Source of the DNA: Catajapyx aquilonaris
Taxonomy: Eukaryota
NCBI GenBank assembly: GCA_000934665.2
Contig: KZ538323.1
Coordinates: 62,001-90,565 of the forward strand
Reading direction: 5' to 3'
Length of the DNA stretch: 28,565 bases
In this document: one piece after another, positions 1-27,519 of the stretch
Layout: each line of letters begins with the position of its first letter
Numbering within the stretch: position 1 is the stretch's first letter
The notes under the pieces: model-generated
What the model was told of the DNA's origin: nothing
Databases searched by the model: none
The model's input: only the letters and a program-made list of their open reading frames with translations
Translations under genes and position numbers: made by a program

Positions 1-572
1 CGTGGATTTGATTCCGGAGGATGACAGGAACTTATATACCTGCCCGGAACAGCCTCGACATATGTCTGTTGCTATAGACAAGTTCAAGTATAGGTAGGTT
101 TGCCAAAATTATTATTTTTTTGGACAAATATTTATAATGAAGATTTTTTTTTTGCAGGCTTCCATATGCAGACTTGTTTGGAGGAGTCAGCGCCTTGACC
201 AAAGAGCAGTTTGAGACTGTTAATGGATTCAGCAACATGTTTTGGGGCTGGGGAGCTGAGGATGATGACATGTCCAATCGAGTTAGAAGTGCCAAATACA
301 AAATATCTAGATATCCAGCCAATGTGGCTCGATATCAGATGTTGGGTCATAATCCTGATAAGCCAAATCCAAAGAGGTTGGTCAACTTTTGTAACACACA
401 AAACTATATGAACATGCACTAAATTTTAATTATTTTCAGGTATGACTACTTGTACTCGGGTCGTAAGAGGTTCAAAACGGATGGGATCAACAGCGTGGAG
501 TATGAGCGAGTGGACTTCCTTTTGAAAAGACTGTACACGTGGGTGTATGTGAAATTACCTGAACGCAGCTGA
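1..572 (+). CDS. Beta-1,4-N-acetylgalactosaminyltransferase / beta-1,4-galactosyltransferase family (GT7, bre-4-like), copy 1, 3' part only
   Basis: Exons <1-93, 158-376, 440-572 joined by GT-AG introns give VDLIPEDDRNLYTCPEQPRHMSVAIDKFKYRLPYADLFGGVSAL...FWGWGAEDDDMSNR...RYQMLGH...DGINSVEY...LYTWVYVKLPERS*. These are hallmark GT7 motifs. Leu before FGG (equivalent to bovine B4GALT1 Tyr289) points to a UDP-GalNAc donor. The 5' part lies outside the window. Confidence 0.93.
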
Positions 573-3308: not shown

Positions 3309-4626
3309 ATGGACACTTGTTTTTGCAAACATCGTTGCTACAAAATTGTCCTGGTGGCACTTCTGATCATCTCTGTTTTTCTGCACTACTTCAGCTACAG
3401 TTTCAACAACAGCATCATACACCAGCATGTTCACTCTTTTAGCAATGTATCTCTTCCATATTGTCCTCATACTTCACCACATTTGAGTAAGTACATCGAC
3501 ATTGTTTGGCTGCACCTTAGTTTAAATTAAAAAGCAAGATTATGATTGTAATGTCAAAATTATTGCAGATGGTCCTCTGAAGGTGGTTAAAACATCAATT
3601 TCAATGGAAGATCTTGAGAAACTCAATCCGCATCTGGAACCAGGTGGTCGGTTTAGGCCCAAACACTGCCGAACAAGTCACAAAGTTGCAATCATCATTC
3701 CATACAGAAACAGAGTTGAACACCTGCGCATCTTCCTGCACAACATTCATCCAATGTTACAGAGACAGCAAATTGACTACGGAATTTACATCATCGAGCA
3801 ACAAGGTATTAAAGTAATCAAACTGTAGTACCACTTTAGCAATATAGTTAACATCTTTTTGTATGTGAATAAGGAAATGGCACGTTCAACAGAGGGATGC
3901 TGATGAACATCGGGTTCGTCGAAGCTCTAAACCAGTACAGTTGGCAATGTTTCATATTTCATGACGTGGACTTGATTCCTGAGGACGATAGAAACATGTA
4001 CGTTTGTACGGAACAACCTCGACACATGTCAGTTGCTGTTGACAAGTTCAATTACATGTAAGTTAAATTGCAACATTATCACTGCAATTGAGAGCTTGAC
4101 AAATGTATGTTTCAGACTTCCATATCCAGAGTTATTTGGAGGGGTCAGTGCCATGACCAAGGGTCAGTTTGAGGCTGTGAACGGATTCAGCAACATGTTC
4201 TGGGGCTGGGGAGGAGAGGACAGCGACTTGTACAATCGAGTCATAAGCACTAATTACACACTAATCAGATATCCAGCCAAAGTGGCCAGATATAAAATGC
4301 TGCGACACAAGGAAGACACACCCAATCCAAACAGGTTCGATTTTAAACAATAAATGATTGTAGATAATATCCTCATTAATAACTAATTGTTCCGCTCAGT
4401 AATTGCCAAGTAGGCCTATACTTGGTTGTGCGACTCCTAGAAATGTTACAGGCACCTACCTAACTTAATTTTCAGGTTCAAAAACGTTCGTTTGGGCAAG
4501 AAGAGATTCAAAATGGACGGACTCAACAGCCTAAAGTACGAACAAGTGGACTTTCTCCTGAAAAGACTGTACACATGGGTTTATGTGAAACTATATGAAC
4601 ATTTTGACCCAGAATTGACCACCTGA
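3309..4626 (+). CDS. Beta-1,4-N-acetylgalactosaminyltransferase family (GT7, bre-4-like), copy 2, complete type II membrane protein
   Basis: Exons 3309-3486, 3569-3805, 3874-4057, 4116-4334, 4476-4626. N-terminal transmembrane segment (KIVLVALLIISVFLHYF), then KVAIIIPYRNR, FNRGMLMNIG, FHDVDLIP, LPYPELFGGVSAM, WGWGGEDSD and YKMLRH. The last two introns are at the same positions as in copy 1. A probable 5'UTR intron spans 3157-3226. Confidence 0.92.
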
Positions 4627-9323: not shown

Positions 9324-10615
9324 CAAATGTCCAATGCACACTTGCTGGAAAAGGGGCTTCTAATGATGATTATATGCACTGACAAAATTTTATAGTCGAA
9401 AAATTAGGAAAGTTTGACATGATATAGTGTGAGCTAAGCTTTGGCATTGATTAGTGTTGCCGATCAAAGCCGCTAACTTTGCTTCAGTTTGCACGCTTAT
9501 ACTTAACGTTAGAAGAGGACTTTTGACATCATTGCTGTCATGATATCAACAAAAGTGACTCCAGTCCCCAAATTAATCATTTATGACTGAGCAAAATGAC
9601 TAGTCCTAACTCAATAATGCACTGACTAACGTTATATTGAGTCATATCTTTTCTATAACATACAGAGCTTTTTTTTGCACAGGATTGCAAAACTCTGCGT
9701 ATTTTAGAAGCTATCTTAATTATGATCTATCTGCTGCTTTGCGCTTCATCGCAGCTGTCCATCTCTATGCATATATTCACAATTGTTACAGCCAGTATTC
9801 TTGCTGCATTAACAATGGCGTTAGTAAGTCAAGCAGCTGGCTTTTGCAATGTAATACATGAAGTACCGTATTTCCACTACACGTGTGCAAAAAAAGAATT
9901 ATCTGAAAACTACAGGGTATTTTCCAATTTTAAAAAAAAGTTCAAGTGTTTCACCCATATTTATTATTAGATCATACTGTTTCACCATATATTTTCTGCA
10001 ACTTCATATATACAATGTACGGTACTTTGCTCCGCTGTTTTTAACCCTGGGAATTTGCGAGTAAAGCTATACAATGCTTTTAATTACACAATATGCACCC
10101 GCCTGTCATCATTGGCCTCCTCTCCTTTTTTTTTTACAGCCGCACAGCAACGTTAACTTTTCAAAAAACGTAACATCCGATTGAACAATAAGGAATCGGA
10201 AACAAAAGCGGTTATGCCAGTTGGTGCTCCGCTGCAGAAACTCATTTTGCATATATGTTAAAATATTTTAAACTCGACGCAAGCAGGTTCATTCCGACGT
10301 GAAGCTTCAACAAGGACGCATCAGGTAGGTTAATACCTTTTTTTTTTGACCTTCACACTTATTTTTTTTATTACACTATGTCCTGTCGCATCCCACTTTT
10401 TTATATAGTGACATAGTAGACAGTCCGACAACATCGCTTTTTTGTACACAACCAGATACAGGGAAGGTTAAGTGTCTCGAGCCAGGATTGGTTGCTTGGC
10501 CGGCCTTTTATTCATCAGATAGTGTCGCTCAAAAAACATGTGAGTAACACACTCGCAATGTGCAGCTCGACCTCTTAACAACTTCAATAATATTTGTCTC
10601 CTAGTCTCGAAAGCA

Positions 10616-13600
10616 ATGAAGGTGTGTGTCCTTCTGTTGCTGCTGTTTGGACATGTCCTGTCCGATTATTCCTCCTGCAAGACACTGACAATACTGCATA
10701 CCAACGATGTCCATGCCAGATTCGAGCAGTTTAACACCCTTGGAAGTCGATGCAACCCAAGTGATGCCACCAAGGGCAAGTGTTACGGAGGATTTGCGCG
10801 TATGTTGGCCAAAGTTAACTCCATCAGGAGCAAGAAGGACAATGTGTTGTTCCTGAACGCTGGTGACTACTACCAAGGGACAGTATGGTACACACTGCTC
10901 AAGTGGAAGCCGATGGCAGTATTCGTCGAGAAAATGCGATACGACGCTATGGTACTGTCAGTTAAATATTTACACGTAATTAATATTAATAGTCTCGTAC
11001 TTGTGGAGCCACAGGGATCCGGACTTATGGCCCCCGCCGTTTCGCCCCCGGTCTTCTGGCCCCCGGCATATTGGCCCCCTTGACCATTTCGTCCCCCGGC
11101 GTATTCGCCCCCGTGACATATTCCACTTTGAAGCAATCTACTGGGCATTTCTAGAAAAGTGACAATATGCCGGGGGCCAGAAGACCGGGGACAAAACGGC
11201 GGGGGCGAAAGGTCCGAGACCAGGAGCCACAAGTACGACACCTGTACGATTCAGGGTTATTATGCCAACAATGTAGTGGAAAGTGACTTTGTTTATAGAA
11301 CAGCTCAGTCTAAACCAGGAGGAATTTCCTTGCCGACAAAGACAACACTAATTTTTACTAATTACAGTGCTCTGGCCTTTTTGGCCACACAACAAGTACG
11401 TGCGTGTTGAGAACGAAAAGAATTTCCGCGATGCCCGTTCATTCTGACAAACGGAATCCGCTTATTCTTTGTCTTGCTGTCTGATATGCACGGTGTATTC
11501 TCTTGGCAGACTCATTATGCTCTGGTACGTTTGCTGTACTGCAAGGAGACTGACATAATTGAAAGGGTGTACTGCAGCATGTGTGCTTTCCGGTAATAAA
11601 TTAAACCAGGTGGGGTGATGCTCAAATCGGTCAAGTTTCACTCGCAAAAAATGTTGCACAATCTGTAATATAGACGTGTAAACTTCATTGTGTGTCTCAC
11701 GTTTCTAGTGTTACAATAATTTTTGTGTGTGCATGTTACAAGTACGGTCGTTACGCTTCATTGTGGGAGAGTTATGACTGTTACATTGGCGAACATAAAC
11801 GGGATTTTGATATACGTGTAAGTATTTGTGAAATGTGTACTGTTTGTTTGACCTTCGATTTTGCGGTTAATCATGCCTAGGTTCGGGCTATTATAAGATG
11901 CGAAAATAATTTGCAAGAAAAATATTCGCAATATTTTTATTTTCTCTAATATGACGCAATTTTGCTTCGTTTCAAAGTCACTGGGAAACCACGAGTTTGA
12001 CGACGGCGTTGCAGGACTGGTTCCGTACCTTTCTAACATTACGACACCGATGTTGGCAGCCAATCTGGATATGTCCAAGGTTCCTGAGATGGAAAAACGT
12101 GTGAAGAAATCTGTCGTACTGGAGCGAAACGGATGCAAGATCGGAATAATCGGTTATGTAACTCCGGATACAACGGTATGTCCCGTTAACACCATCAAAG
12201 TGTCCACCAACTGACAAAATGTTATTCTTCTCAAGTTCATCTCGTCACCTGGTCCTTTGTTGGTGTTCAACAATGAGATCGAAGCAATCAAAAAGGAGGC
12301 AAAAGAACTGAGGTCACAAGGAGTCGAGCTTCTGATTGCCCTAGGTCACTCCGGATACAACATTGACCAGGACATTGCCAGAGAATGTGATGATATCGAC
12401 CTGGTGGTCGGAGGTCACACCAACACTTTCCTGTACACTGGTATGACTCAGTGGGGGATAAAAATACAATTAAAACAACAGCTGGATTTTCCAGTTGCTT
12501 CACTTGAATTGCCTAACTATAGCATGCTGTATGAAAGAGTGTTCAATTATGTATAATATAATTAACATAGCATAATTATGTAGAGCAATCGTTCGCACAC
12601 ATGAAGTGTGAAGATTTCATTATCTCTCTTGAGATTTTTTTTTAAATCATATGTGAAAACTGACCTCGCCACTAGAACGGACAATTACATAATGCCAGTC
12701 AATTTGAACCAATTTACACGCTAATGTCTCTTTACCGTCATAGCATAACCAATTATATAATATTACATCATCACCATTTAAGAATACATTTTTCTTTCTC
12801 CTAAACGGCTTATGGATGTTTGTCCGATCTGATAGTATTGCTTTCTCCCGCACGGGTGGCGGAAGTGTGCAGACAGGGTGCGCCATCTGTGCGTGAAGAA
12901 TAGTACTACGTGGTAAATCGGCGGGCTATCTCATTAAATTGTTTAATTTTGCCGAATTTTGGCAACGGATTCACTAGTTATGCCCATAGAAAGTAAAATG
13001 GTTTCAAAAACTCACATCTTCTTATTATCTGAACAGGTACACCTCCAGATCGAGAGGTTCCCAAGGACGTGTATCCCAAAGTGATAACGCAGCTGAACGG
13101 CAAGAAGGTACCGGTGGTGCAGGACTATGCTTACGGAAAGTACCTAGGATACCTGACGGTCACCGTGGATCCAAAAGGAGACCTTACCAGCTGGGAAGGA
13201 AACCCCATTCTTCTCAACTCCTCCGTACCACAAGGTATATTCCCTTTCCATTCACAATAGTACAGTGTCGTTGGTATGTAATTGGGCGAGACCATGCTGT
13301 TTCATGTCACAGATTCGGATCTTCTGGCACAGCTGAAACCTTGGCGAGACCAACTGGATCAGGAGGCCAAGAAGCAGGTCGGAACCACCAAAGTCTTCCT
13401 GGGAAATCCCAGAGATGGAGAGAGCAATCTTGGAAATCTCATAGCTGATTCCATGGTCTATCATGTGAGGCGTCTATCTTTCTTATATTTTTCTTATTCT
13501 GTAGTTCAGGTTAACTTATGTTGCCAAGAGGTGGAAGGAATGTAAGAAAGGTACAGCTGCCAGCTTCTTACTTTCAGATTGTAAAGAACAGCAATAGCAA

Positions 13601-14450
13601 CAATAGTTGGTCAGACACTGCAATAGCTATGATTAACAGTGGAGGAATCAGATCGCCTATCGATGAGTCTTCAGGCGGTAAGACTCTACAACGAATGTGT
13701 TTTGTTGGGGGTATTAATTATTACAAAAATTTTGGCTGCAGGAATAATAACGATGGAGGATCTGATGACCTCACTTCCGTTCCAAAACACAATGCAAATC
13801 CTTCGTTTCAAAGGAAAGCATTTGCGTGAAATCCTGGAATTTTCGGTCACATTTTATGGTGGTCATGGAGAGCGATCGACAGGCGGATTTTTGCAATTTT
13901 CAGGTTCGTTTTTTTATAATTCTCCATTATGTATGTCAGAAATATTTTTTTAACACTCGCATGTTTCAGGTATAAAAGTATTGTTCAACATACACAAGCC
14001 TGTTGGAGAGAGAGTGGTGAGACTTCTGGTCAAGTGTACCAAATGCAGAATACCTGATTATTATCCAGTAGAGGATGACAAGGACTATGATGTTGCTGTG
14101 ACGACGTTTTTGGCCAAAGGAGGCGACGGATTCACGATGATTTCAGGAAACGGGATTCCAATAAGCTCATCAGGTTTGTCCCCAATTGGCAAATTAAGTT
14201 TCTCTAATATTAATACCAATTCTCCCCAAAAAATTCTTCAGATGTAATAGACACCGACATGATGGTAGATTACTTCAAAAACCAAATGAACATGGTGTAC
14301 CAAGGCCGTGAAGGAAGAATTCGATTCGTAACGGACCAACCTCCAGTAACAAAATCGCCATCATCCTCGCAACAACTGAAATGCACATTGCTGTCTCTTA
14401 TAGTACCTGTGATATCCCTACTTATTTGGAGATCTATTCATAGGGTGTGA
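10616..14450 (+). CDS. NT5E: Ecto-5'-nucleotidase (CD73/5NUC-like; apyrase/5'-nucleotidase family), secreted with a probable GPI anchor
   Basis: Exons 10616-10951, 11978-12175, 12236-12440, 13037-13234, 13313-13464, 13578-13677, 13742-13903, 13970-14173, 14242-14450. Signal peptide MKVCVLLLLLFGHVLS; metallophosphoesterase motifs HTNDVH, AGDYYQG, LGNHEFD, LGHSG, VGGHTNT; C-domain motifs GGIRS, LPF, GGDGF; hydrophobic C-terminal tail after SPSSS. A probable 5'UTR intron spans 10325-10604. Confidence 0.93.
11014..11222. mobile_element. MITE (209 bp) with ~62-bp imperfect terminal inverted repeats and 9-bp target-site duplication, Mutator-like
   Basis: 11014-11075 (gggatccggacttatggcccccgccgtttcgcccccggtcttctggcccccggcatattggc) matches the reverse complement of 11161-11222. 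The element is flanked by the direct repeat GGAGCCACA at 11005-11013 and 11223-11231. The arms are built from ~15-bp GCCCCCG subrepeats. It is GC-rich within an AT-rich intron. Confidence 0.85.
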
Positions 14451-14653
14451 AAAAATCTCAACTATTCAAACCAACCGGTCAGTTTGTCTCAACCAACGTA
14501 ATTTTGTTTTAAAAAATTATTCATACACCGGTACAGTACTGTCTCAATAATGTGCCAAAAAAGTGCAACATGTAATAATGATGCATTCTCACTCGTGATA
14601 ATTTGATTGAAAAGTTACTTATTGTTGTCACTTACTAAGGCGACTGCATGCCA

Positions 14654-14659
14654 AATAAA
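14654..14659 (+). terminator. Polyadenylation signal of the 5'-nucleotidase gene
   Basis: AATAAA about 200 nt downstream of the stop at 14450, followed by a pyrimidine-rich tract. Confidence 0.5.
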
Positions 14660-14796
14660 ATGAAAAATGTGGACGCTAGATGTCTCTTGCTCCCTTCATT
14701 CCCATTTTCTGTGCCGCCTAATCCTACCGCTACGAGTCGCCCCCCATTTGACTCACGAACAATTTCCAGGGCGGGTACTTTCGTTTGCTTTGCACA

Positions 14797-14802
14797 TCAG
14801 TT
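14797..14802 (+). promoter_or_regulatory. Initiator-like motif (TCAGTT), candidate transcription start of the aminopeptidase P gene
   Basis: Matches the arthropod Inr consensus TCAKTY, about 60 nt upstream of ATG 14859 and a strong donor (ATAG|GTAAGA) at 14910/14911. Confidence 0.45.
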
Positions 14803-14858
14803 TAGTGGTCTTCATCCTCTGAGGAAGAAGACACCGCCGCTCTTGGGAAGTGGGGACT

Positions 14859-17800
14859 ATGGAGGTCCCAATCCCACGTCATTGGAACCTCACCTGTACT
14901 CTTCTTATAGGTAAGAACATCCTATAGAGGTATTAAAGGCGGGGTTCAATTGATTTAAAAAAAAAATCAGTGTTAATGATGTGACAAGCGATGCTTAAAA
15001 GGCCACTCTTAATGAATCGTGGCGAAAACTAATTTGCATTTTTCACCCACTACTAACCCATTGCCTTTCATTATCTCATGGGCAATCAATTTAACATCGG
15101 ACATGCATGCAATGGCGCAATGCAGGATGACACCTTGGATTACAATTGTTGAAGGCGGCGGATCTCTTTAGAAACGTTTTATAGAAAGAGCCAACGTCAA
15201 CTTGTCGGCACGTCTTTTGGCTGTGTGCTAAAAAAAAAAGAGTGCCGCGCTTTTAATTTGATCACGTCATTCACACTTCCGTATAGCATATGGACGAAAG
15301 GAAATGTCATGCCAGTTTGTAAAAGGGCCATTTGTTTCTTTTAAAAAATACTAGAAAAACTCGCAGTGTTTTTCTCGGCCTGCGGTGTGCGGTGGACATC
15401 GTATTTTAAATCGCTTCGGACTATACCAGTGACTCGTTAAAACATGTTATATGCAATGAAACGGCCGGATTTAATTGCCATATTATGTAATATCAAGGAA
15501 GTGACTAATTACGCAACCCACGTACAAAAACAAGTGTAAATATTTGCTATCCATCCGGAAGCTATAGTGATAGACTCACTATAAGTCGAAACAAACCCAG
15601 TTTAATGTTTGAAACTAGGCAACATCAACAGCTGAAAATTTGGACCGATCTTGATCCAAAATAAGAGCGTGAGTCAAACGTGACGCACTTTTCCTCTGAA
15701 GCGTAACCGGCTGTTAATTAATTTTCACTTAAAAAAAAACTCCACCCTGTTGATGGGCCCAAACAACACAACAAAGTTCCTAACCTATGAACCACCCTGT
15801 GATGCAATTTAACCATGGCAGACATCCAGAGGACCTTGACTTCTCTTGTCATCAAAACGAATTCTACCTGTCTGTACATTTTAAATATATTACAACTCCT
15901 TTTTTCTAATATCATTTTCACTGAGGTGAAAGTTATGTAACTACCAGACGACATTATTCTTTTTTTTTTTTTCAAAGGCCAATAAACCCGTCCTTGGATA
16001 CCTTAAATACCTATTCTTTTGGCTCGGGAAGTACCAAACGAAAGGAGTCCATTCGTTTACGATTTTTTTTTTTTTGGCAAATGGGTGTGAAAGTATTCTT
16101 TTCCCAAGCCACCAAACGAAATCGAGAGAAGAAGCCTTTTAGCAAGGATGCTTTATTGAAAGTGGCCTGTAAAACACTGAGATCTTGAAGAAGAAGAAAA
16201 AAAAAATCTTAAAACTTTTTTTTTATTATATAAATAGTATGGTGGCATCATCTCGTGTTATGCGTGACTCTAGTAAATTATTGTTCATGCAAACGGATTG
16301 GTTTTAATGTCTATCCAGCCAGTTCTCACATAATTATTGAAATTACGACGTGAGTTTCTGGAAGGCCACCAAGAAGGAGGAGGATTTATTAGTTCGCAAA
16401 ATAGTAAGGTGTAAACAGCGAGACCCTGTTTTATGTACCTATTGTTATATGCGAAAAATGGCCAGTAAATCAACTATTAGTTTGCTGACGTTGAAAAAAG
16501 ATTGCTACTCTTACATAATCTATTAAGAATTTGATAGTGAAAAACTCACTCAAAAAAATGAGCAATTTCGCATAATTCCTTTTTTTTGAATGAATTTCAC
16601 TCGGCAAAGATTTACTTTAACTCAAATCGAGTGGAAAATTACTCGAGAAAAGAGTGAAATAGTGAAATTATCACTCAAATTAAGTGATAAATCTTCACTC
16701 GAGTGATATAGTGATTTTGGGCTCAAAACGAGTGGGAGTCAAGTGGAATGAGTGAAAATCACTCGACCATTATTAGTGATATACCGTATGTCTTCAAACC
16801 ATTTATTTAAATCCCCCCCCCCCCAAAATCTACTCTTACATATCTATCGAAGGAATTTACGAGTGAAAAAATCACTCAAAAAATTATTAGCAATTTCGAA
16901 AAAATACTCGGAAAATTACTCTAAAATAAGAGTGAAAATGCTCTCAGTGAGTGACATTATCACTCAAAATTACTGATAATAATTTTTCACTCGAGTTATA
17001 TACAGTAGTGATTTTGATTCAAAAATGAATGATAATTTTGACTCAAAAATGGAGGATAATTTTGACTAAACAATGAAGGATAATTTTGCCTCAACAATGA
17101 AGGATAATTTTGACTCGACAATGAAGGATATTTTTGACTCAAAAATGAAGGATAATTTTGACTCAAAAATGAAGGATAATTTTGACTCAACAATGAAGGA
17201 TAATTTTGACTCAACAATGAAGGATAATTTTGACTCAACAATGAAGGATAATTTTGACTCAACAATGAAGGATAATTTTGACTCAACAATGAAGGATAAT
17301 TTTGACTCAACAATGAAGGATAATTTTGACTCAAAAATTATTGTGAATTTTCACTGGAGTGAGTGATTTTGACTCGAAAATGAATAATTTTCACTCGAGT
17401 GATAGTAATTTTGACTTTAAAATGAGTGATAATTTTTCACTCGAGTGAGAGTGATTTTTGACTCAAAACGAGTGGGAGACAAATAAAATGGAAGGATCAT
17501 TTTTTTAAAGAGTGTATGTCTTCAAATAAATTTTTTTCCTGTTCCAAAATTTTGAGAGCAAAATATGTTAACCGTCCCTCTGTTGGTTAACATGTTTTTC
17601 TCCCGAGCCACTTCATATATTTTGCATATACTCCCGGCCTTCACCCTCCATATTTCATAGTGGCCAAAAAAAAAAAAAATCGCACATGGAAGCCATCCTC
17701 CACTCTCGCGTCCTACCTCTTTTATCTCCTCTGGAAATAACCTCTCCGAAGAGTGATGCCAACTTGGATGGCGCACAGGGAAAGAACTTTTTTTTTTCTT

Positions 17801-20800
17801 TTCTTCATGCTTGGGAGTGGATAGACGATTACTACATAACCCAAACTTATTTTTAAAAGTACGTGGCAGACACGATTCGTATGCCCTTGCCCCAGGACTT
17901 TAACCATTGTTCAAAAAAAAATGTGAACATTGTCAAAAATCAGAAATATTAAGGTTAGATGTACAGCAGGTTTCCAAAGCTTGATTAGAAGAGGGCAAAA
18001 AGAATAAACAGAGTTATGGCCCCGCCTGTTTCATTTGGGTTTGGGACTGTAAAAATAAACGGGTTGGAAGTATACATTGTCAGGAGGTTATTTTTGTTCC
18101 TAGCCCCTTCCCCGAATTTTTTGGGGGATATTACACAAAATCTGGGGGGTGGTCACATGGAGGAAAATCATGTGAAGGTCGTGGGAATGTTGGTAGCAGA
18201 TTAATACGCATTGAGCAAGCAAACCATTAAACTGTCAGAACTATACATATTTGAGGATTAAGTTGTCCCCAGCATATAGAAAGTGCATGAAACATTTTTC
18301 ACTGTGCACATACAAATGTAAATAGAGTGAAGAAGCTAACTTTCTGCTCCCTATGATGTAACGCAAAGAAATTCTACTCAAGGTCGAATAATTTCCTGAG
18401 AGAGCGGCATAGACTACTTTTGTGACACAATGACCCCTCCAAAAAAACCTTGCTCCCGGACTGACCTTTCACATAGTCATCCTCTCTATTTCGTGACGTT
18501 ACATTCCCTCCAACAATTCAGTCAGCACCAAATTATTTTAAAAAAAAGAACTGCTCCCAAAAGGGCCTGTTAACCTGGGTACAAATGAAGGGATCCCCCC
18601 CCCCCTCCCCCCAATTTGGAAAGACCTAGTTTTTTTTATGAAGACTTTTTGGGTGTGGTCTCACCTGATTTACGAGCATCCAGAAGATAGGCGGACCACT
18701 TCACTGGGGGTAGATCGATAGCAGCTTAAATCGGTCTGGTTTTTACGTCCTTCTTCCATCCACATCTTGTTGTCCAAACAAAAGGTTAAAAAAAGGCAAT
18801 GTGAAGGTCGCAAATTTTGTATAATGCAAATAGCTGCATTAATGGTGAATATCTGAATATTAATATTGCTATAATGGCTAGCAGGTTACCTCCATGAAAA
18901 ATATTCAGATTAACGACCTGACCCTGCGTGCTCGAGGGCACTTTAAAATTTTTTTTATATAAAGTCATGCCCTTGCATCTGTTCTCTTCCTTTTCACGCA
19001 TCTTCTCATCGGGTTGTGTAATGGACATAGGAGGGGGGGAAAAAAAGGAGACGAAGCATCTCTTCCGCTTTGGCACTAGGTTACTTGGTCTTGTTTGCAC
19101 GATATTTAAATTGGGTGTGGGCCAAAAAAAGGTTTCTTGGGTGTAAAATTTGGGTGCGGCTTGCTTCCATTGCCGGATCGGACACTGTTTTTGTCGCTGC
19201 TGTGGTGGGACGACGGGGGCTATTTTGCAATTATGTTGGTTGGGGAGATGAGGAAAAAAATATATATAGTTAATCAGAGGCGGGGTTCCAACATGTCCCG
19301 ATTTGATATCAGGGTGGAACATATTGCTGGTATTAATTAAATTGCAAAATTTGATTCTGAAAAAAAAAATCCGCAATAAAATGTAGCATCTTAGGCAACT
19401 GATGTGACCCAACAAATAAACAAACGGATGTACTTGTACATATATGGTAAGTGATCATATAATAATCAAGGTCATCAATTGCTGTCAACTGACCTCGATT
19501 ACAATGTTCTTGGGTCATATCCAGATCATCATTTTAAAAAAATAATGCGTAGCTATTTTTAAGATGAAATTACCATTGGAGATTTTTTAGGGGGGGCACG
19601 CGTCTTCAAAAAAATCTCTTATGCGGCGAACCTTGAGTTTAAAGAAGTTGGTAAGGAAATGAGAAGAATAATCGAGGGTGTGTGTGGGCGAAATGTCTTG
19701 ATGGTTGAAGTCAAGGCTGTGCGCATAAGATGCTGCGGGGGCCTTCTCTTTTTTCTTTGACCATTGCTAAGCAGTCACGAAAAATATGACAGGTCGGAAT
19801 TTTCATCTAGAAGGGAACAATACTGATGCTTTCAGATCAGAATCAGGGCAGTGACTCATCAGCCCATGTCCTCTGATGATGCCGACTATAGTTCATTATA
19901 GCGATGTCAACAATATGAAACCTGTTGACAAGGTATGCGCAACATTTTAATAATTACTAAAAAAAAGACACATACGGTTACCATGGAATTGTCGGAAATT
20001 CCAAAATAAATTCCAGCAGTTCGGGGGCGTGATATTTAAGATATATCTCTCCCCATCTGTTCTGAGTACCTTTTTTTTAAAAGAACAGAACAGTTTTTTT
20101 AAATAATTAGACGCGGTCCAGCCCCCAGTCAGAGTTGATCAACTACCTTGACGATGGGGCCAAGTCGGGCTCAATTAGACCGTCGTCGAAGATCAGAGAA
20201 GGACAGTCTTTCCTTAGATGACGATGAGGACGGTTCTAAGGTGACCACTGTGGTTGCAACTCCTGGACAAGGACCAGATAGGCCACAGGAGATCTCATAC
20301 ACCGATACCAAAATCATCGGAAATGGCAGCTTCGGAGTGGTATACCAAGCCAAACTACTGGAGACTGGTGCGCTGGTGGCCATCAAGAAGGTCCTGCAGG
20401 ACAAGCGCTTTAAGAACCGTGAGTTGCAGATAATGAGAAGGTTGGAGCACTGCAACATTGTGAAGCTCAAGTACTTCTTCTACTCGAGCGGTGATAAGAA
20501 GGAGGAGGTGTATCTGAACCTAGTTGTAGAGTACATCCCAGAGACAGTGTACAAAGTGGCTAGACACTACAGCAAGTCCAAACAGACACTTCCGATCAGC
20601 TTCATCAAGCTGTACATGTACCAACTGTTTCGCAGCCTGGGTTACATACACTCGATGAACATCTGCCACAGGGACATTAAGCCACAGAACCTCCTGTTGG
20701 ATCCGGATTCAGGTGTGTTGAAGCTCTGTGACTTCGGGAGTGCCAAGCATCTGGTCAAAGGAGAGCCCAACGTCTCCTACATCTGCTCGCGATACTACAG

Positions 20801-23800
20801 AGCTCCAGAGCTCATCTTCGGCTCCATAGATTACACCACGAAGATCGACATTTGGAGCGCAGGTTGCGTCCTGGCAGAGCTGCTTCTGGGTCAGCCCATC
20901 TTCCCTGGAGATTCTGGAGTGGACCAGTTGGTGGAGATCATCAAGGTTCTGGGTACCCCAACCCGAGAGCAGATCAAGGAGATGAATCCCAACTACACGG
21001 AGTTCAAGTTCCCGCAGATCAAGGCCCATCCTTGGCAGAAGGTCTTCAGGGTCCGAACACCACCGGAAGCCATCGACCTGGTGTCTCATCTTCTGGAGTA
21101 CACCCCGGAGACACGGATCACCCCTCTGGAGGCATGTGCCCACTCCTTCTTCAACGAGCTGAGAGAATCAAACACCAAGTTGCCCAACGGTAAGGATCTT
21201 CCTCCGCTCTTCAACTTCACTGAGCAAGAGATGGCCATCCAACCCACTCTCAACCATATCCTGATGCCTGGAACCTCTAAGACTGAGGCTGATGGAGGTT
21301 CAATCGGGGTCCCCAGCATCATAGATGAAGCAGCCTCCACTGGTGAAAACGAGTCGCAGCAGCCAGCAGCATCTTCTACCACCTCCTCCATAGCCTGAAG
21401 AGCTATCAGTCGCCACTACCTAACAAAGCCATCCGAAGAATTAGGAAAAAAAAAACAGTAAATATAGCCAAAAATATTAGTCAGGAAAATATTGGCACTA
21501 AGTTGAACCTTCCTCATTTTCCTTCAGATCAACACTGTACACAACCAGTGGAGGCCCAGAAGTGTGAAGATCCGTCTTGTTAAAAAAAAGGGTGTGAAAA
21601 ATATATAAAAGGGAAAAAAATGGCATTGTTGGCATCAGAGTGTAACTGGGACTAATAAGCTCTGGTATTAAAATTATATGTCACGTTGACTTTTTTAGTG
21701 TGCTTTATTTTTTTATTTTTTTTGTAAAGAAAATAAGGTTGAGTCTTAACCCCTTTTTTTCGTCATCCGCGTGCATATTATGGTCTTATTCAAATTTTCG
21801 TTGCAACTCATGGTGTGAAAGTGGTCGCAATTGAAGAATAATTGGGTATGCAAATGGTGCAGCTCTCACACTACAGGATATGTCTGGTCAAAAATCGTGC
21901 AAAAAAAGAAAGAAAGAAATTGTTTTTTTTTCGCGGATCACGATTTTTCCACTTCATGAACAGGGGCATTGCTCCCATTGTAAGTACTTATATCGCGAAA
22001 TCCACAAGAACCTTCTCACAAGTTGGTACCAACAACGAAGTCAGCATCAGAAGAAGAAAAAAAATGTCGCCCATAAAAATGACAATCAGCGAATTAAAAC
22101 AGTAAATTTCAACTATCTCTCGACGGGTGGGTTTTTAATCGTCTGAATGGGTTTTAATCAGTTTTAATATTCGAAGGGGTTTCAGTTGATTAAGTACCGT
22201 GCTGTGGGTTCGGTTTTTTTTTATCAGCAGGTTTGGCGTCGATCTGCGTTGGTCTGGTGCCGCCCATAGCCTTGGAAGAAAATGAATCACATCATCAATC
22301 AGCTGACCAGAGTACGACGAGAGGTCACACTGTCCAACAGGACCAACTGCAAGTTCGGACAGACACGTCCAGTGGACAGAGTGGACACCACAACAAGACT
22401 GTCCAATCTGAGGTTCCAGTTTGACAGAGTGGTCGGACCAAGAGGAGAAAGGATCTCAGCATACATCGTGCCCTCAGATGATGAACATCAGGTATAAAAA
22501 TGGAGAAAGTTTGTCCGTATGTTAGTATACACTTTCTAAAAAAAATCGAGTGAAAATTTCACTCTAAAAATGGACAATTTTCGAGTGAAAATTTCGATCA
22601 AAAATGAACAATTTTATAGTGAAAAATTCACTCTAAAAATGAACAATTTTATAGTGAAAAATTCACTCTAAAATGACCAATTTTCGAGTGGAAATGTCAC
22701 GCTAAAATGAACAATTTTCGAGTGGAAATTTCACTCTAAAATGAACAATTTTCGAGTGGAAATATCACTCTAAAAATGAACTATTTTCGAGTGGAAATTT
22801 CACTCTAAAATGAACAATTTTCGAGTGGAAATTTCACTCTAAAATGAACAATTTTCGAGTGGAAATGTCACTCTAAAAATGAACAATTTTCGAGTGGAAA
22901 TTTCACTCTAAAAATGAACTATTTTCGAGTGGAAATTTCACTCTAAAATGAACAATTTTCGAGTGAAAATTTCACTCTAAAATGAACAATTTTCGAGTGA
23001 ATTCAGGCATAATGGGACGAGACATTTTCGCGCAGGTGCAAAACATGTTCAGGTCTTGAAATTTTCTCACAGGTGTAACAAGTCTAGTACAACTACTGAC
23101 CTCGTATCGTTACACACACGCTTCTCATGCCTTGCAAAAAAGGTTGCAAATAAATTTGCAAAGAGTCGGACAGCCTCAAGGCCGTGAAAAAAAAAGAATC
23201 CTTGATGTGAACTTGATGCTAAAAGGCTTGACCTGCAGTGAGAACAGAGATTAATATTCTGGGGAGTGGTCATCAATCTGAGGTCGATTATCGTTTGTCA
23301 GGTCCCAGGTTTTTTTTTTCTTTCTTCTCCAAACAAACGATGCGCATTAGAACCTTGTCACTCGGTCCATCAACACTTCATTTTTTTTTTGTGGCGACTT
23401 CTTCTCGAACTAAAAAAAGCGTGACAAACTAATATTAATCCGCTAATTTTCAAGGCAAACCGCTACTAACAGTGGTTTTAAAAGGTCAAGACGTTGTCCA
23501 GGGAGATCCTGACCTTGTTCAAATCAGACTACCCAGGATGTAAGCCAATTACATTATTATACCACACCCACATCATTATTAGGCCTATACTATGATGCCA
23601 AAATTTGTATTGGACGTACATGACACCAACAGTTGGCGCGCATTATTATTTGCACACTACTGCCGCTCTCACGTTGGTGATGATCCTACATGCACGTTGG
23701 TGATGAGCCAACATGCACGTTGGTGATAATCCAACATGCACGTTGGTGATGAGCCAACATGCACGTTGGTGATGAGCCAACATGCACGTTGGTGATGATC

Positions 23801-26800
23801 CAACATGCACGTTGGTGATGATTCAACATGTATAGGGATAAAGCCAATTCTATGTCGTTTTAATTCAATATTTTGTGATAATCTGGTGACCTGCATTGTT
23901 TTTGATTTTTCAGAGCGAGTATGTGGCGGAGTATGACCAGCGACGGAGGTTCATAAGCGGTTTCTCGGGTAGTGCTGGTACGGCCATAGTGACCAGGACT
24001 AAAGCTGCGTTATGGACAGACGGAAGGTATTTCCTTCAGGCTGAGGACCAACTGGACTGCAACTGGATACTGATGAAGATGAACGTGCCTGGGGTACTTG
24101 ACCACTCCCCAGATAGTCCACTTGAAGGGGCATCAAACACTGCTTCTTTTATATTCAACGCTATGTTTTTTCAGGTCCCTACTTTTGCGGAATGGCTCGG
24201 AGCTGAATTGCGATTTGGAGACAGCGTTGGAGCAGATCCTAAGCTGATTGGTGCACAGACTTGGATCAAATGGGCTCAGGAATTTGGTCAGATTTTTTTT
24301 AACAATCTTAAGATGTGCTTAAAGAGGATGATTACGTAATGGACTTAATTGCAGATGCGTATGGGATCAAGCTGGTTGAAATAAGGACCAACCTGGTGGA
24401 TGAAATATGGACATTCCGTGACCATCGACCACGCCTATCCAACTCTCATATCTACGTTCACGAATTAAAATACGCAGGTCAGAAATTTTTACAACTTTCA
24501 AGTACCATATAAAACTCTTCAACAAAATGTTAGACACAGGATAAGTTTCATTAATTGCTCGGATAAACAAGGTGGCGATAAAGGAAGCTGCACCCTCATT
24601 TTTTTATGTGTGTACGAAGACTTTTAAACGAGGTGTCAAGGTTGGTGCTTCGTGTATCTAGGTTGAATTGCATAGTCCATTGGATCGGCAGGAAGAGACC
24701 TTTAAGGCTGACCACGCGACCATCTTTGACCTCCTATTCATACGCCAAAAAGTACAAGGCGTCTCGTCTGAAGGGCGTTTGATCATCACGCTTCGTTTAA
24801 GTTCGAGGGGGGCTAATTTGATAGGGGAAAAGGCAATTAGGAGCTCTGCTGGACGGAAATTAATTTTTTTTTTTTTTTGCAGTGAAAAGAGCTTCTAACT
24901 TTTATTTTATTAAAACTTCGCACGGGAATTGTAAAATAAATCGGACATAATACAAAGATGAAAGTTTGTCCATATCCCAGGGCTATTTAACTCCCTTCTG
25001 GACTACTGAGACTTGGCTGGAAAAATGCACAAAATTTATGATTTTTTTTTGGTTAGTTACTTGAAAATATTAATTGCAATATTTCTGTACAGGTAAGCCA
25101 TGGGAAGATAAGGTGCAGGAGTTGAGGAGTGAGCTGACCAGAAGCAAGATCGACATGATGGTGGTGACAGCATTGGACGAGGTGGCTTGGCTGTTCAACC
25201 TGAGGTCAAACGACGTCCGGTACAACCCAGTGTTCAGGTCGTACGCGATCGTCACTCCAGATGCGTTACACCTGTATGTGCCTGGAAGCAAAGTGTCGGA
25301 CGCACTGCGAAACCATCTGCATTCCAAACATTGCAAGACAGCCTTCTGCGTCAAGTAATTGTCCCACAACAACAACAACAACAACAACAAACAACAAAGT
25401 GAACCTCACATTGTCGTTTCAGATTGCACGATTACCAGGAGATATTCCATGATCTTCCAAGACAAGTCAGCCATTGGACCAAGGCGCTGATACCATCTCG
25501 GTACAGCTACTCAGGAGGAGCAAGTTACGCCATATATGAACTTGTAAGCCAGAACGAAATTAATGTCCAACATTGTATACTAAATTGTGACGTTGCAGGT
25601 ACATACTGACAAGAGGGTTGTAGCACCTTCGCCCATACTGTTCATGAAAGGAAGGAAAAATCCGACCGAAGTTCAGGGTATGAAAAACGCACATATACGA
25701 GACTCCGTGGCTCTTTGCAACCTACTGGCTCTTTTAGAGGAAGAGGTACGTGTACTTTATGGTGATCAGGAAAAAAAGGGTTTGACCGGTACATTGTCGG
25801 CAGGTACCGGCTGGAGTACACTGGGACGAACTGAAGGCAGCACATCAGCTGTTGGTGTACAGAGACGAGCAGGCACTGAACCAAGGAGCAAGCTTCGAGA
25901 CGATATCTGCATTCGGACCAAACTCTGCAATCATACACTACGTACCCACACTTGATACCAACGTGACCATCGACACCAAAAGCGTGTATCTGCTCGACTC
26001 AGGAGGACAATACTATGGTAACTTATTGCAGACGATTTAAAATTAATTTTGGTGTTTTTTGTTTGAATAAATACGTATTAGTATTCGAGATATGATCGAT
26101 CAAAGATACGGCTTTCTGACGTCACTGTGGTTAGGCAGGAGTGGGAATGTGCCCCTTAGGTCACGCCCCCTTTTTTCGCGCCAATTTTAAATTTATCGCC
26201 CGGCTTGTTTACATGTACTTGTGAACCCAAATATTGTTTCAGATGGTACGACGGACGTGACCAGGACCGTACACTACGGCACACCGACTGAGTTTCAGAA
26301 GGAGATGTACACACGAGTGCTGATGGGTCTGATCAACCTGGCGACACTCATCTTTCCTGATGGCACTACAGACTCTGATGTTGACCTTTTAGCCCGAATG
26401 CCCCTGTACGAAGCAGGTCTCAAGTACAGACACGGGTCAGGTCATGGCATCGGCTCGTTTCTAAACGTGCACGAAGGTATTGCAAATAACCCACTTGTAT
26501 TATAGACACGAAAAATTTTAGAAACTATTTTCTCACAGGTCCGATTCAGGTTACCAACTATGGGACAGAGTCACATGTTCTAGAGGAAGGCCAATTCCTT
26601 TCTAATGGTAAAAAAAAATAGAAAAAAATATAGTTGTCAATTTTTTATGTGGTGGTTGGTCTTATTGTCATTGCACTTTTTTCTCAGTAGGGCTTATTAC
26701 TAATTTGGCACTTGGCATGTTTAGTTGTTGTCCAGTAGTTTGTAGCTGTAATAATTGCTTGTTTGTGAACTTCTAGCAAACAATGAAACTTATGACTTGA

Positions 26801-27519
26801 ACATCTTTAGGTCTATTGGTAAGTTGTAGTGGTTTTTTTTGCATGATTTTGCTTATTAATTATTAAATGCATGAAATGTACTGCCATCTGAACTAATAAC
26901 AAGTCGACATATTTTAATTACACTATATTTTTTTACAGAGCCTGGTTACTACAAGGACTACGACTTTGGAATACGGCTTGAGGATATTATGCATGTGATT
27001 CGGAAAGAAACTCCGGTAAATTAAAAAAAAGAGGTAAATTAAAGAGTTAAATGCTGATTACAATTATTTGTGTTACAGTATGAACCGGATTCGTTATTTT
27101 ATGGGTTTGAGCCAATCACACTGGTGCCATTCGAGCCAAAAATGATTCTTCCGGACATGATGACCGATAAGCAGGTAATTTCATTTGCTATTTACCGAAA
27201 CAATAAATTAATTATAATTAAAATGAAGACTAGGTCACTGACGTTGTACTGTGTATACATAGTCGTATTAAATATTAATTATAATTTGATTTGAATATGT
27301 CTGTTCCAGAGGGAATGGTTGAACGAGTACAACGCACTAGTCAGGACAAAGGTCGGAGCACTGATGAAGCAGCAGGAAAGAATGAGGACATTCCACTGGC
27401 TCATGACCAAGACCAGCTACGTGGGTACTACAAATGTCAGTCATCGAATAGGTCCAACAATCATCCTGGTGCTTATGGCTATGCCTCTACTAAGATACGC
27501 CTCTCGTCTCTTTGTGTAG
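14859..27519 (+). CDS. Xaa-Pro aminopeptidase (aminopeptidase P, M24B), membrane/GPI type (XPNPEP2-like); apparent 1-nt frameshift in exon 2
   Basis: Exons 14859-14910 (inferred), 22228 or 22231-22491, 23914-24093, 24175-24286, 24355-24477, 25093-25354, 25423-25543, 25599-25745, 25804-26017, 26243-26476, 26539-26607, 26939-27015, 27079-27174, 27310-27519. Motifs [46 protein letters not shown]; metal-ligand motifs [23 protein letters not shown]...VHE, NEPGYY, GIRLED; hydrophobic C-terminal tail. Exons 2-14 are well supported by family motifs. Exon 1 is inferred from splice phase and signal-peptide continuity. Confidence 0.88.
16506..17526. mobile_element. Two tandem copies of a repeat-rich element (16506-16798 and 16831-17526), probably a non-autonomous DNA transposon remnant
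   Basis: Both copies start TACTCTTACATA...GTGAAAAA.TCACTCAAAAAA...AGCAATTTCG, share TTCACTCGAGTGA...GTGATTTT...CTCAAAACGAGTGGGAG, and end GTATGTCTTCAAA. Many CACTCGAGTG and GAGTGAAAA.TCACTC palindromes are present. Confidence 0.55.
17009..17338. repeat. Minisatellite, 24-bp unit (CAATGAAGGATAATTTTGACTCAA), about 13-14 copies
   Basis: Directly visible. It produces the 8-aa periodic ORFs (MKDNFDST on +, SQNYPSLL on -). Confidence 0.95.
20154..21398 (+). CDS. GSK3: Glycogen synthase kinase-3 (shaggy-like), kinase domain in a single uninterrupted ORF; probable retrogene
   Basis: ORF contains [101 protein letters not shown] and [12 protein letters not shown]. No stops or frameshifts. The first ATG is at 20154, after an in-frame TGA at 20136-20138. 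The true N- and C-termini may be spliced differently. Confidence 0.95.
21667..21672 (+). terminator. Candidate polyadenylation signal (ATTAAA) of the GSK3 transcript
   Basis: ATTAAA about 270 nt after the stop, followed by GT/T-rich sequence at about 21690-21725. Confidence 0.3.
22545..23001. repeat. Tandem array, 34-35-bp unit with internal palindrome (AATTTTCGAGTGGAAATTTCACTCTAAAATGAAC), about 13 copies
   Basis: Directly visible in aminopeptidase intron 2. Each unit carries the GAGTG(A/G)AAATTTCACTC hairpin. The array is preceded by TACACTTTCTAAAAAAAAT at about 22527. Confidence 0.95.
23670..23830. repeat. Minisatellite, 23-bp unit (CACGTTGGTGATGATCCAACATG), 7 copies
   Basis: Seven consecutive near-identical units with internal GTTGG/CCAAC inverted repeats, ending about 80 nt before the exon 3 acceptor. 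Confidence 0.95.
25366..25397. repeat. (CAA)n microsatellite in aminopeptidase intron 6
   Basis: About 10 CAA units with one interruption inside the 68-nt intron 25355-25422. Confidence 0.9.

What the first reader, a model, noticed from the sequence alone, without database searches (positions are those of the whole stretch)
14859..22491. Intronless GSK3 gene nested on the same strand inside the first intron of a membrane aminopeptidase P gene
Seen: the aminopeptidase exon at 22228/22231 starts after a strong T-tract-CAGCAG acceptor in phase 1 with half a signal peptide ([18 protein letters not shown]) and no ATG. At 14859-14910 there is ATG + 17 codons + 1 nt ending in ATAG|GTAAGA, behind an Inr-like motif. 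Joined, they read [30 protein letters not shown], a credible signal peptide that fits the GPI-type C-terminus. The intact GSK3 ORF (20154-21398) lies in the resulting ~7.3 kb intron. Known: animal GSK3 genes (human GSK3A/B, fly sgg) have introns in the kinase domain, and every other gene in this window is intron-rich. Nested genes are more often antisense to the host. Inference: a GSK3 retrocopy landed in the host intron in sense orientation and has been kept intact, so its polyadenylation would compete with host splicing.
Basis: partly seen in the sequence, partly recalled or inferred. Interest (0 to 1): 0.78.

Follow-up and report, generated by a model that had tools for sequence, protein, structure and literature searches.

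The report
Intronless GSK3 gene beside aminopeptidase P
An intact, single-exon copy of the kinase GSK3 sits just upstream of a many-exon aminopeptidase P gene in an arthropod genome, but the claim that it lies inside that gene's first intron is unproven because the proposed exon join is one base out of frame.

Summary
The GSK3 ORF (20154-21398, 414 aa) is real, intact and has no coding intron. It is 82% (P0074) and 77% (P0082) identical to two insect GSK3s over BLASTP alignments that reach the C-terminal region, and up to 90% over the kinase-core columns of the tree alignment. It lacks the canonical Ser9 N-terminus.

The aminopeptidase P (APP) gene is also real. From ATG 22282 it has 13 exons and encodes 684 aa, with a hydrophobic C-terminal tail.

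One key detail is wrong. The hydrophobic stretch [18 protein letters not shown] is in a different frame from APP. The APP frame is closed by TAG at 22267-69 and has its own ATG at 22282.

Nesting works only if a base near 22270 is wrong or polymorphic, or if a 46-55 nt mini-intron is removed. Comparative points favour a missing signal peptide: homologues have one, and the 14859 exon is statistically unusual. A proximal start is equally workable.

No genome is held, no RNA run was listed and no close relative was found, so the junction and a parent gene could not be tested.

My odds: RNA-mediated origin about 0.8; nested about 0.4. This is a known kind of feature and of modest interest.

The parts
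10544..14450 (+). Upstream neighbour: a multi-exon 5'-nucleotidase gene. Stop codon at 14448-50; AATAAA at 14654.
   Evidence: Pfam Metallophos and 5_nucleotid_C on ORF pieces; ORF list; polyadenylation-signal scan
14797..14802 (+). TCAGTT, an initiator-like motif 57 nt before ATG 14859
   Evidence: The motif is not enriched in the window (19 found against 22.4 expected).
14859..14910 (+). Candidate signal-peptide-type first exon: ATG, 17 codons and 1 nt, then donor G|GTAAGA (phase 1)
   Evidence: Sequence; the only such exon in 57 kb, and seen in 1% of shuffles; best of the phase-1 candidates
14911..22227 (+). The proposed 7,317-nt first intron. It holds a 24-nt tandem repeat (17011-17338) and no recognisable gene other than GSK3.
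20097..20136 (+). TATA-like (TTTAAATAA) and initiator-like (TCAGAG) motifs about 30 nt apart, just upstream of the GSK3 ATG. A possible own promoter.
   Evidence: Read from the sequence; inference only, not tested for significance
20154..21398 (+). Single-exon GSK3 ORF, 414 aa, with a non-Ser9 N-terminus
21667..21727 (+). ATTAAA followed by a stretch that is 68% T and 80% G+T. This is the best candidate GSK3 polyadenylation site.
21956..21983 (+). Proximal alternative first-exon candidates: ATG 21956 with the strong donor ATT|GTAAGT at 21980 (phase 0), or GTACTT at 21984 (phase 1)
22158..22187 (+). Two TCAGTT motifs, 124 and 100 nt upstream of ATG 22282, with no ATG in between. A possible proximal APP start site.
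22214..22230 (+). Run of 9 T followed by ATCAGCAG: strong acceptor-like site, giving an exon start at 22228 or 22231
   Evidence: pyrimidine fraction 0.76 and 0.71, at the top of the range of the 12 real APP acceptors
22228..22269 (+). Hydrophobic stretch read in the frame of ORF 22194..22424, one base out of register with APP. Possibly the second half of a signal peptide.
22267..22269 (+). TAG stop codon in the APP reading frame
22282..27519 (+). Membrane-type aminopeptidase P gene. From ATG 22282 it has 13 exons and encodes 684 aa. Introns are 1422, 81, 68, 615, 68, 55, 58, 225, 62, 331, 63 and 135 nt.

Best explanation
The region holds an intact, single-exon GSK3 gene. It most likely arose through an RNA intermediate, as a processed copy of an mRNA isoform that carries a basic/acidic N-terminus instead of the canonical Ser9 segment. 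It has promoter-like motifs directly upstream and a good polyadenylation site about 270 nt after its stop codon. It appears to be under strong constraint, so it is probably a working kinase gene.

It lies on the same strand between a 5'-nucleotidase gene, 5.7 kb upstream, and the first homology-supported exon of a 13-exon, membrane-type aminopeptidase P (APP) gene, 0.83 kb downstream.

On the assembly as given it is not demonstrably nested. The proposed join of exon 1 to exon 2 reads a frame one base out of register with APP and stops after 82 codons. Nesting remains possible, at about 40%, under one of two conditions: one base near 22270 is mis-assembled or polymorphic, or a 46-55 nt mini-intron is removed.

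Shown: the ORF, its colinearity with homologues, the frames, and the APP gene model.
Inferred: the RNA-mediated origin, the promoter and polyadenylation sites, and function.
For: GSK3:
- Full-length Pkinase match, E 7e-66.
- 82% (P0074) and 77% (P0082) identity to insect GSK3s by BLASTP, with no insertion in the window's protein. It lacks the inserts those isoforms carry between PWQK and VFR, a site I take to be an exon junction (inferred, not checked).
- In a tree of 22 rows it falls within a starred set of 10 rows, otherwise all insects, with 98/92 support. Its end branch is 0.14 against a median of 0.069.
- 117 of 120 listed homologues share the x-D-G-x-K-V-T-T-V start of the shared core, which follows different N-termini in different hits. 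46 of 120 carry the canonical RxRT[TS]SF segment. No such segment is coded anywhere in the window.
- 2 of 120 (weevil isoforms) have an N-terminus like the window's.
- ATTAAA at 21667 is followed by a stretch that is 68% T.

Neighbours are intron-rich: APP has 12 introns of 55-1422 nt.

Frame conflict: there are two different ORFs, TAG at 22267-69, ATG at 22282, and the join stops at 22422.
Against: - No poly(A) remnant and no convincing target-site duplication. The best direct repeat is a low-complexity 10-mer.
- A parent gene could not be sought, so intron loss at the native locus is not excluded.
- Against 'not nested': four of four crustacean APP homologues with complete N-termini have a signal peptide of 21-25 residues before a Cys, followed by a spacer and then REVTL.
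- The window's APP keeps a hydrophobic C-terminal tail, yet from ATG 22282 it has only 9 residues where the homologues have 45.
- The out-of-frame hydrophobic stretch has a 2.4% chance expectation. The 14859 exon occurs once in 57 kb. Both fit a real split signal peptide.
- The codon-usage test places a frame switch near 22270.
Confidence: 0.6

Rival explanations
1. APP transcription starts near 14799. Exon 1 (14859-14910) splices across 7.3 kb to 22228/22231 and supplies the first half of the signal peptide, so GSK3 is nested in sense orientation in the first intron. This requires either that one base near 22270 is an assembly error or a frameshift allele, or that a mini-intron (22248-22302 or 22257-22302) is removed.
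For: - The exon is unique in 57 kb and appeared in 1% of shuffles.
- Its phase matches the hydrophobic frame.
- Joined, the distance from Met to the Cys is 24 residues, against 21-25 in four homologues.
- APP needs a signal peptide if its C-terminal tail is a GPI signal.
- AATAAA of the upstream gene lies at 14654, before the exon.
- Codon statistics favour the hydrophobic frame up to about 22269 and the APP frame after that.
- Introns of 55-68 nt exist in this gene.
Against: - As assembled, the join is out of frame and stops at 22422.
- About 3.3 kb of GSK3 and APP coding sequence shows no other frame break, so an indel at this exact spot is unlikely beforehand.
- The mini-intron donors (GTTGGT, GTGCCG) are weak and conflict with the codon test.
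- The N-terminal alignment to homologues is not significant: z 0.87, and 49 of 300 shuffles reach the observed score.
- The host transcript would have to read through an intact polyadenylation site about 540 nt before the acceptor.
- The thresholds were chosen after the fact.
Confidence: 0.38
2. Tandem neighbours. GSK3 ends at about 21690 and APP starts downstream of it. APP begins either at the TCAGTT motifs at 22158/22182 as an unspliced first exon with ATG 22282, or from a short exon ending at 21979/21983 or 21641 that splices to 22228. GSK3 is not nested. The 14859 exon is chance or belongs to something else.
For: - This is the only reading that needs no change to the assembly: there is no ATG between 22147 and 22282, ATG 22282 is preceded by AAA, and two TCAGTT motifs lie 100-124 nt upstream.
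- A strong donor, ATT|GTAAGT, lies at 21980, 248 nt before the acceptor.
- Proximal phase-1 candidates give signal-peptide-like joins.
- Most introns in this gene are short.
Against: - From ATG 22282 there is no signal peptide, although four of four homologues with complete N-termini have one and the hydrophobic C-terminal tail is kept.
- The proximal phase-1 donors are weak. One lies 4 nt after a much stronger donor that is in the wrong phase.
- These candidates still need the same frame repair.
- This model leaves both the hydrophobic stretch and the 14859 exon to chance.
Confidence: 0.45
3. The 14859-14910 exon is an alternative first exon of GSK3 itself. It would splice to an acceptor-like site inside the ORF (ctttccttag|AT, exon start 20218), which is phase-compatible.
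For: - The phase-1 donor and this acceptor keep the GSK3 frame.
- Arthropod GSK3 genes use several alternative first exons that join just before the D-G-S-K-V-T-T-V core (PMC7410302, passages read).
Against: - The site lies 3 residues upstream of the conserved junction.
- Its pyrimidine fraction is only 0.53.
- A hydrophobic leader makes no sense on a cytosolic kinase.
- Phase agreement alone is a 1-in-3 chance.
Confidence: 0.05
4. On origin, independent of nesting: this is the animal's only GSK3 locus. It became intronless in place, by recombination with a cDNA, or it is a retrocopy that replaced its parent. It is not an extra copy beside an intron-bearing parent.
For: - Conservation is as high as between orthologues, 90% to a mayfly over 311 columns, and its end branch (0.14) is only about twice the tree's median (0.069).
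- No poly(A) remnant or target-site duplication.
Against: - No exon coding the canonical RxRT[TS]SF N-terminus occurs in the 20 kb upstream or anywhere else in the window.
- 46 of 120 arthropod hits carry it, as do 10 of the 17 environmental GSK3 transcripts I examined, out of 80 fetched.
- A sole gene without that segment would be unusual.
Confidence: 0.3

Closest known systems
Drosophila gasket (gskt, mojoless), a retrotransposed GSK3 gene
   Same: It is a GSK3 copy made by retroposition from the intron-bearing shaggy gene. [quoted passage not shown] Kalamegham et al. 2007 was seen only as an entry in that paper's reference list.
   Different: The parent of gasket is known; here a parent could not be sought. 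The window's copy is as conserved as an orthologue. From memory, not checked here, gasket is said to have diverged functionally. Expression of the window's copy is unknown.
Nested (intronic) protein-coding genes in animals
   Same: PMC3192792 (passages read) reports that about 41% of human nested genes are single-exon and about 63% lie on the opposite strand. It also describes interference through cryptic polyadenylation.
   Different: Here the orientation would be sense, with an intact polyadenylation site about 540 nt before the host acceptor. The nesting itself is unproven.
Membrane-bound aminopeptidase P (XPNPEP2 type; signal peptide plus GPI anchor)
   Same: It has Creatinase_N, Creatinase_N_2 and Peptidase_M24 domains. 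It is 52% identical (326 of 627 aligned columns) to a stomatopod homologue. It has the REVTL..C N-terminal motif and a hydrophobic C-terminal tail.
   Different: No in-frame signal peptide exists on the assembly as given. That the XPNPEP2 type is GPI-anchored is from memory, not from a call.

Membership tests
GSK3 / shaggy kinases | Full-length protein kinase domain, colinear with GSK3 orthologues | tested here: met
   Pfam PF00069 covers residues 49-333 against profile positions 1-263 of 263. BLASTP identity is 82% and 77% to insect GSK3s with no insertion in the window's protein.
GSK3 / shaggy kinases | Catalytic-loop and DFG motifs and the activation-loop tyrosine | tested here: met
   [14 protein letters not shown] and [14 protein letters not shown] are identical to those of P0074 and P0082 in the alignments. 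Which residues count as diagnostic is from memory.
GSK3 / shaggy kinases | N-terminal inhibitory segment (RxRT[TS]SF, Ser9 type) | tested here: not met
   Absent from the ORF and from all six frames of the window. Present in 46 of 120 homologues. This is a feature of one isoform class, not of all family members.
Retrocopy / retrogene | No introns where relatives have them | tested here: met
   The ORF is uninterrupted. It lacks the insert that P0074 and P0082 carry between PWQK and VFR. Intron positions in relatives are otherwise from memory.
Retrocopy / retrogene | Poly(A) tract at the 3' end and flanking target-site duplication | tested here: not met
   Only short A-runs are present (A10 at 21446, A8 at 21582), and the best direct repeat is a low-complexity 10-mer. 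An old insertion could have lost these marks.
Retrocopy / retrogene | An intron-bearing parent gene elsewhere in the genome | not testable with these tools
   No genome is held. No near-identical protein or contig was found.
Nested gene in a host intron | Host exons on both sides joined in a transcript | not testable with these tools
   See Tried and rejected.
Nested gene in a host intron | The join of the flanking host exons keeps the host reading frame | tested here: not met
   The join of 14910 to 22228 reads the ORF 22194..22424 and stops at 22422-24. APP is in the ORF 22270..22497.
Membrane-type aminopeptidase P | Creatinase_N, Creatinase_N_2 and Peptidase_M24 domains | tested here: met
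   the 13-exon, 684-aa model has no internal stop codon.
Membrane-type aminopeptidase P | N-terminal signal peptide | tested here: inconclusive
   There is none in frame from ATG 22282. A hydrophobic stretch lies one base out of frame.
Membrane-type aminopeptidase P | Hydrophobic C-terminal (GPI-signal-like) tail | tested here: met
   The last exon ends in a 13-residue hydrophobic run followed by 8 residues, resembling the tails of P0121, P0122, P0125 and P0126. No GPI predictor was run.

The most novel reading that the evidence does not exclude
A highly conserved processed GSK3 gene, possibly the animal's main or only GSK3, lacks the Ser9 regulatory N-terminus. It sits in sense orientation inside the 7.3-kb first intron of a GPI-anchored aminopeptidase P gene. 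Every host transcript would then have to read through an intact polyadenylation site about 540 nt before its acceptor, so expression of the two genes would be coupled by competition between polyadenylation and splicing.
Probability: 0.3. Interest if true: 0.45.

Novelty: new member of a known kind. Interest (0 to 1): 0.25.

Why it matters
If the GSK3 copy is a kept retrogene, it adds a second arthropod case beside Drosophila gasket. This one shows no sign of fast divergence and lacks the Ser9 switch, which bears on how Akt-type control of GSK3 is spread over isoforms and copies.

If it is truly nested in sense orientation, it is a compact natural test case for competition between a nested gene's polyadenylation site and host splicing.

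In practice, the finding flags a probable one-base frame problem, or an unannotated mini-intron, at the start of the APP gene. An annotator would otherwise resolve this by calling a protein without a signal peptide.

Tried and rejected
- Whole genome: none is held, so neither a parent-gene search nor synteny was possible.
- RNA evidence: no RNA holder was listed for 14800-24700.
- Earlier notes of this scan: nothing by place, sequence or words.
- Metagenome scan with GSK3: 466 relatives found, 80 kept, best identity 85%. No same-species contig turned up that could check the frame at 22270. Most contigs are 2-4 kb and look like transcripts.
- Search with the GSK3 C-terminal tail: 4 hits, all matching only the conserved part. 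No close relatives.
- Alignment of eight N-terminal models to four homologue N-termini: z from 0.41 to 1.32, none significant. The resemblances I saw by eye (A-G-x4-C; ALE..HH; PW) carry no statistical weight.
- tblastn of homologue N-termini against 14451-22500: the only match was the REVTL region.
- Target-site duplication and poly(A) search: nothing convincing.
- Initiator motif as evidence: rejected, because TCAGTT is not enriched.
- Acceptor at 22269|22270 (phase 0, no frame repair needed): rejected as unlikely. It is a TAG acceptor, whereas all 12 real acceptors in this gene are CAG. It lies after two AGs that follow the T-tract. The only upstream phase-0 candidate found is an unconvincing signal peptide.
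- Other genes in 14.9-20.1 kb: 6 ORFs gave no Pfam hit. The 222-codon minus-strand ORF had 0 hits among 1.84 billion representatives. No Rfam family and no tRNA were found.
- Literature search for intronless or crustacean GSK3 gene structure: nothing relevant appeared in the listings.


Full report
WHAT THE WINDOW HOLDS. All recognisable genes lie on the + strand.
- There are two beta-1,4-galactosyltransferase-like genes. One is cut off at the start of the window and one lies at about 3.2-4.6 kb (Pfam Glyco_transf_7N/7C). Their matching pieces are 70% identical over 74 residues.
- A multi-exon gene at about 5.0-9.3 kb has weak TPR matches below Pfam's cut-off.
- A multi-exon 5'-nucleotidase gene follows (Metallophos and 5_nucleotid_C). 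It ends at 14450, and AATAAA lies at 14654.
- The GSK3 ORF comes next, then an aminopeptidase P (APP) gene (Creatinase_N, Creatinase_N_2, Peptidase_M24).
- The best GSK3 hits are insects and an ostracod. The best APP hits are lobster, crayfish, crab and mantis shrimp. The source is therefore an arthropod, probably a pancrustacean.
- No protein or contig from the same or a close species was found.

THE GSK3 GENE.
- The ORF 20139..21398 holds ATG 20154 and stop TGA 21396-98, and encodes 414 aa.
- Pfam's kinase profile is matched end to end.
- BLASTP against a mayfly and a weevil GSK3 gives 82% and 77% identity. There is no insertion on the window's side. The window lacks the short inserts those isoforms carry between PWQK and VFR, a site I take to be an exon junction (inferred). 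The coding region therefore looks like a fully spliced message.
- I built a tree of 22 rows. Seven rows were dropped because my anchor motif did not match them: P0100, P0035, P0108, L001, L002, L025 and L030. In this tree the window's protein falls within a starred set of 10 rows, otherwise all insects, with 98/92 support. Its end branch is 0.14 against a median of 0.069. That is about twice the median, similar to the mosquito row (0.13), and 90% identity to the mayfly remains.
- Among the 120 listed homologues, 117 share the x-D-G-x-K-V-T-T-V start of the shared core, which follows different N-termini in different hits. 46 carry the canonical RxRT[TS]SF (Ser9-type) segment. Two, both weevil isoforms, have a basic-then-acidic N-terminus like the window's.
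- No Ser9-type segment is coded in any frame of the window. It is present in 10 of the 17 environmental GSK3 transcripts I examined, out of 80 fetched.
- Downstream, ATTAAA at 21667 is followed by a stretch that is 68% T and 80% G+T. This is the best polyadenylation candidate.
- Upstream, a TATA-like and an initiator-like motif sit about 30 nt apart, just before the ATG. I read these and did not test them.
- No poly(A) remnant or credible target-site duplication was found.
- Inference: complete absence of introns in an intron-rich neighbourhood, together with an isoform-specific N-terminus, points to an RNA-mediated origin (about 0.8). Whether a parent gene survives cannot be tested here.

THE APP GENE.
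- tblastn with five homologues maps exons from 22270/22309 to about 27560.
- A model from ATG 22282 has 13 exons and 684 codons, with no internal stop. Its introns are 1422, 81, 68, 615, 68, 55, 58, 225, 62, 331, 63 and 135 nt. All 12 acceptors are CAG.
- It is 52% identical to a mantis-shrimp homologue (326 of 627 aligned columns). The alignment starts at residue 10 of the window's protein and at residue 46 of the homologue.
- The four crustacean homologues with complete N-termini begin with a signal peptide of 21-25 residues up to a Cys. A polar or acidic spacer of about 25 residues follows, and then REVTL.
- They end in hydrophobic tails, and so does the window's protein.
- From ATG 22282 the window's protein has no signal peptide.

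THE CRUX: THE FRAME.
The APP homology lies in ORF 22270..22497, one base out of register.
- In the APP frame, TAG at 22267-69 closes the frame, and ATG 22282 follows, preceded by AAA.
- Joining 14859-14910 to 22228 gives 82 codons and then TGA at 22422-24.

- (a) A hydrophobic 10-mer as strong as the one after the acceptor occurs in only 2.4% of 17-codon stretches in the six-frame translation of the window.
- (b) A codon-usage test was trained on 2,242 codons of the window. In calibration the right frame won in 89% of 380 13-codon windows.
  - For 22230-22269 it favours the hydrophobic frame: +3.9 against -12.4 for the APP frame and +1.4 for the third frame.
  - For 22270-22317 it favours the APP frame: +1.2 against -6.3 for the hydrophobic frame.
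  - So the coding frame seems to switch near 22270.
- (c) A short ATG exon with a hydrophobic end and a strong phase-1 donor occurs once in both strands of the window, at 14859. It turned up in 1% of 300 shuffles of 14451-20153. The thresholds were set after seeing it, so the true chance is higher.
- (d) Of 572 ATG-to-GT combinations, 18 have a donor score of 4 or more and 11 of those are in phase 1. Only 2 of the 11 start outside the GSK3 ORF, at 14859 and 19428.
- (e) With the 14859 exon, the distance from Met to the Cys is 24 residues, within the homologues' range.

THE THREE POSSIBLE REPAIRS.
- One base too many in the assembly, or a frameshift allele, near 22266-22272.
- A mini-intron at 22248-22302 (55 nt) or 22257-22302 (46 nt). 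Introns of 55-68 nt exist in this gene, but these donors are weak and the codon test speaks against this option.
- An acceptor at 22270. I consider this unlikely (see Tried and rejected).

- About 3.3 kb of GSK3 and APP coding sequence shows no other frame break, so an error at exactly this spot is improbable beforehand.
- No N-terminal model aligns significantly to the homologues.
- TCAGTT is no more frequent than chance (19 found against 22.4 expected). Two further copies lie 100 and 124 nt upstream of ATG 22282, with no intervening ATG. That gives the simplest as-assembled model: a proximal start, an unspliced first exon and no signal peptide.
- Proximal phase-1 exons also give signal-peptide-like joins (21620-21641; 21956-21983 next to a strong GTAAGT donor at 21980). 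This is because most of the hydrophobic run is in exon 2 itself.
- A host transcript starting at about 14799 would have to read through the GSK3 polyadenylation site.

VERDICT.
- GSK3 is a real, intact gene that looks like a processed copy and is probably functional. This is a known kind of feature: Drosophila gasket is a retrotransposed GSK3 (PMC7410302, passages read).
- Nesting is unproven. My odds are about 0.4 for nested, about 0.45 for tandem neighbours, and the rest for other arrangements.
- Nested single-exon genes are common, and roughly a third or more lie on the host's strand (PMC3192792, passages read: 63% opposite strand, 41% single-exon in human).
- The decisive data are transcripts and accurate reads across 22200-22330, plus a genome-wide search for a parent GSK3.

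Noticed in passing
window 141-422 and 3231-4626 (+): Two beta-1,4-galactosyltransferase-like genes lie in tandem. Their matching C-terminal catalytic pieces are 70% identical over 74 residues. The first gene is cut off by the start of the window.
   Followed up: partly
window 17011-17338: A tandem array of a 24-nt unit with 13.7 copies and 94% matches, flanked by degenerate 42-48-nt repeats. It is open in one + frame and two - frames only because the period is a multiple of three.
   Followed up: partly
window 18786-19454 (-): A 222-codon stop-free frame on the minus strand, unusually long for DNA of about 40% GC. It has no Pfam hit and no hit among 1.84 billion protein representatives, so it is probably non-coding.
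   Followed up: yes
window 24094-24174: An 81-nt APP intron that is in frame and free of stop codons. If retained, it would insert 27 residues rather than break the protein. Six of the gene's 12 introns are only 55-68 nt.
   Followed up: partly
window 10544-14450 and 22282-27519: Both neighbours of GSK3 encode ectoenzyme-type proteins with hydrophobic C-terminal tails (5'-nucleotidase and aminopeptidase P), and they lie on the same strand.
   Followed up: no
window 22320-22332: The REVTL codons spell GGTCACACT. From memory, this matches a Drosophila core-promoter motif (Ohler motif 1). It is most likely a coincidence of coding sequence.
   Followed up: no
window 20184-20195 (GSK3 residues 10-14): The N-terminus carries RRRRS in place of the canonical Ser9 segment. 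This may be a site for a basophilic kinase. Speculative.
   Followed up: no
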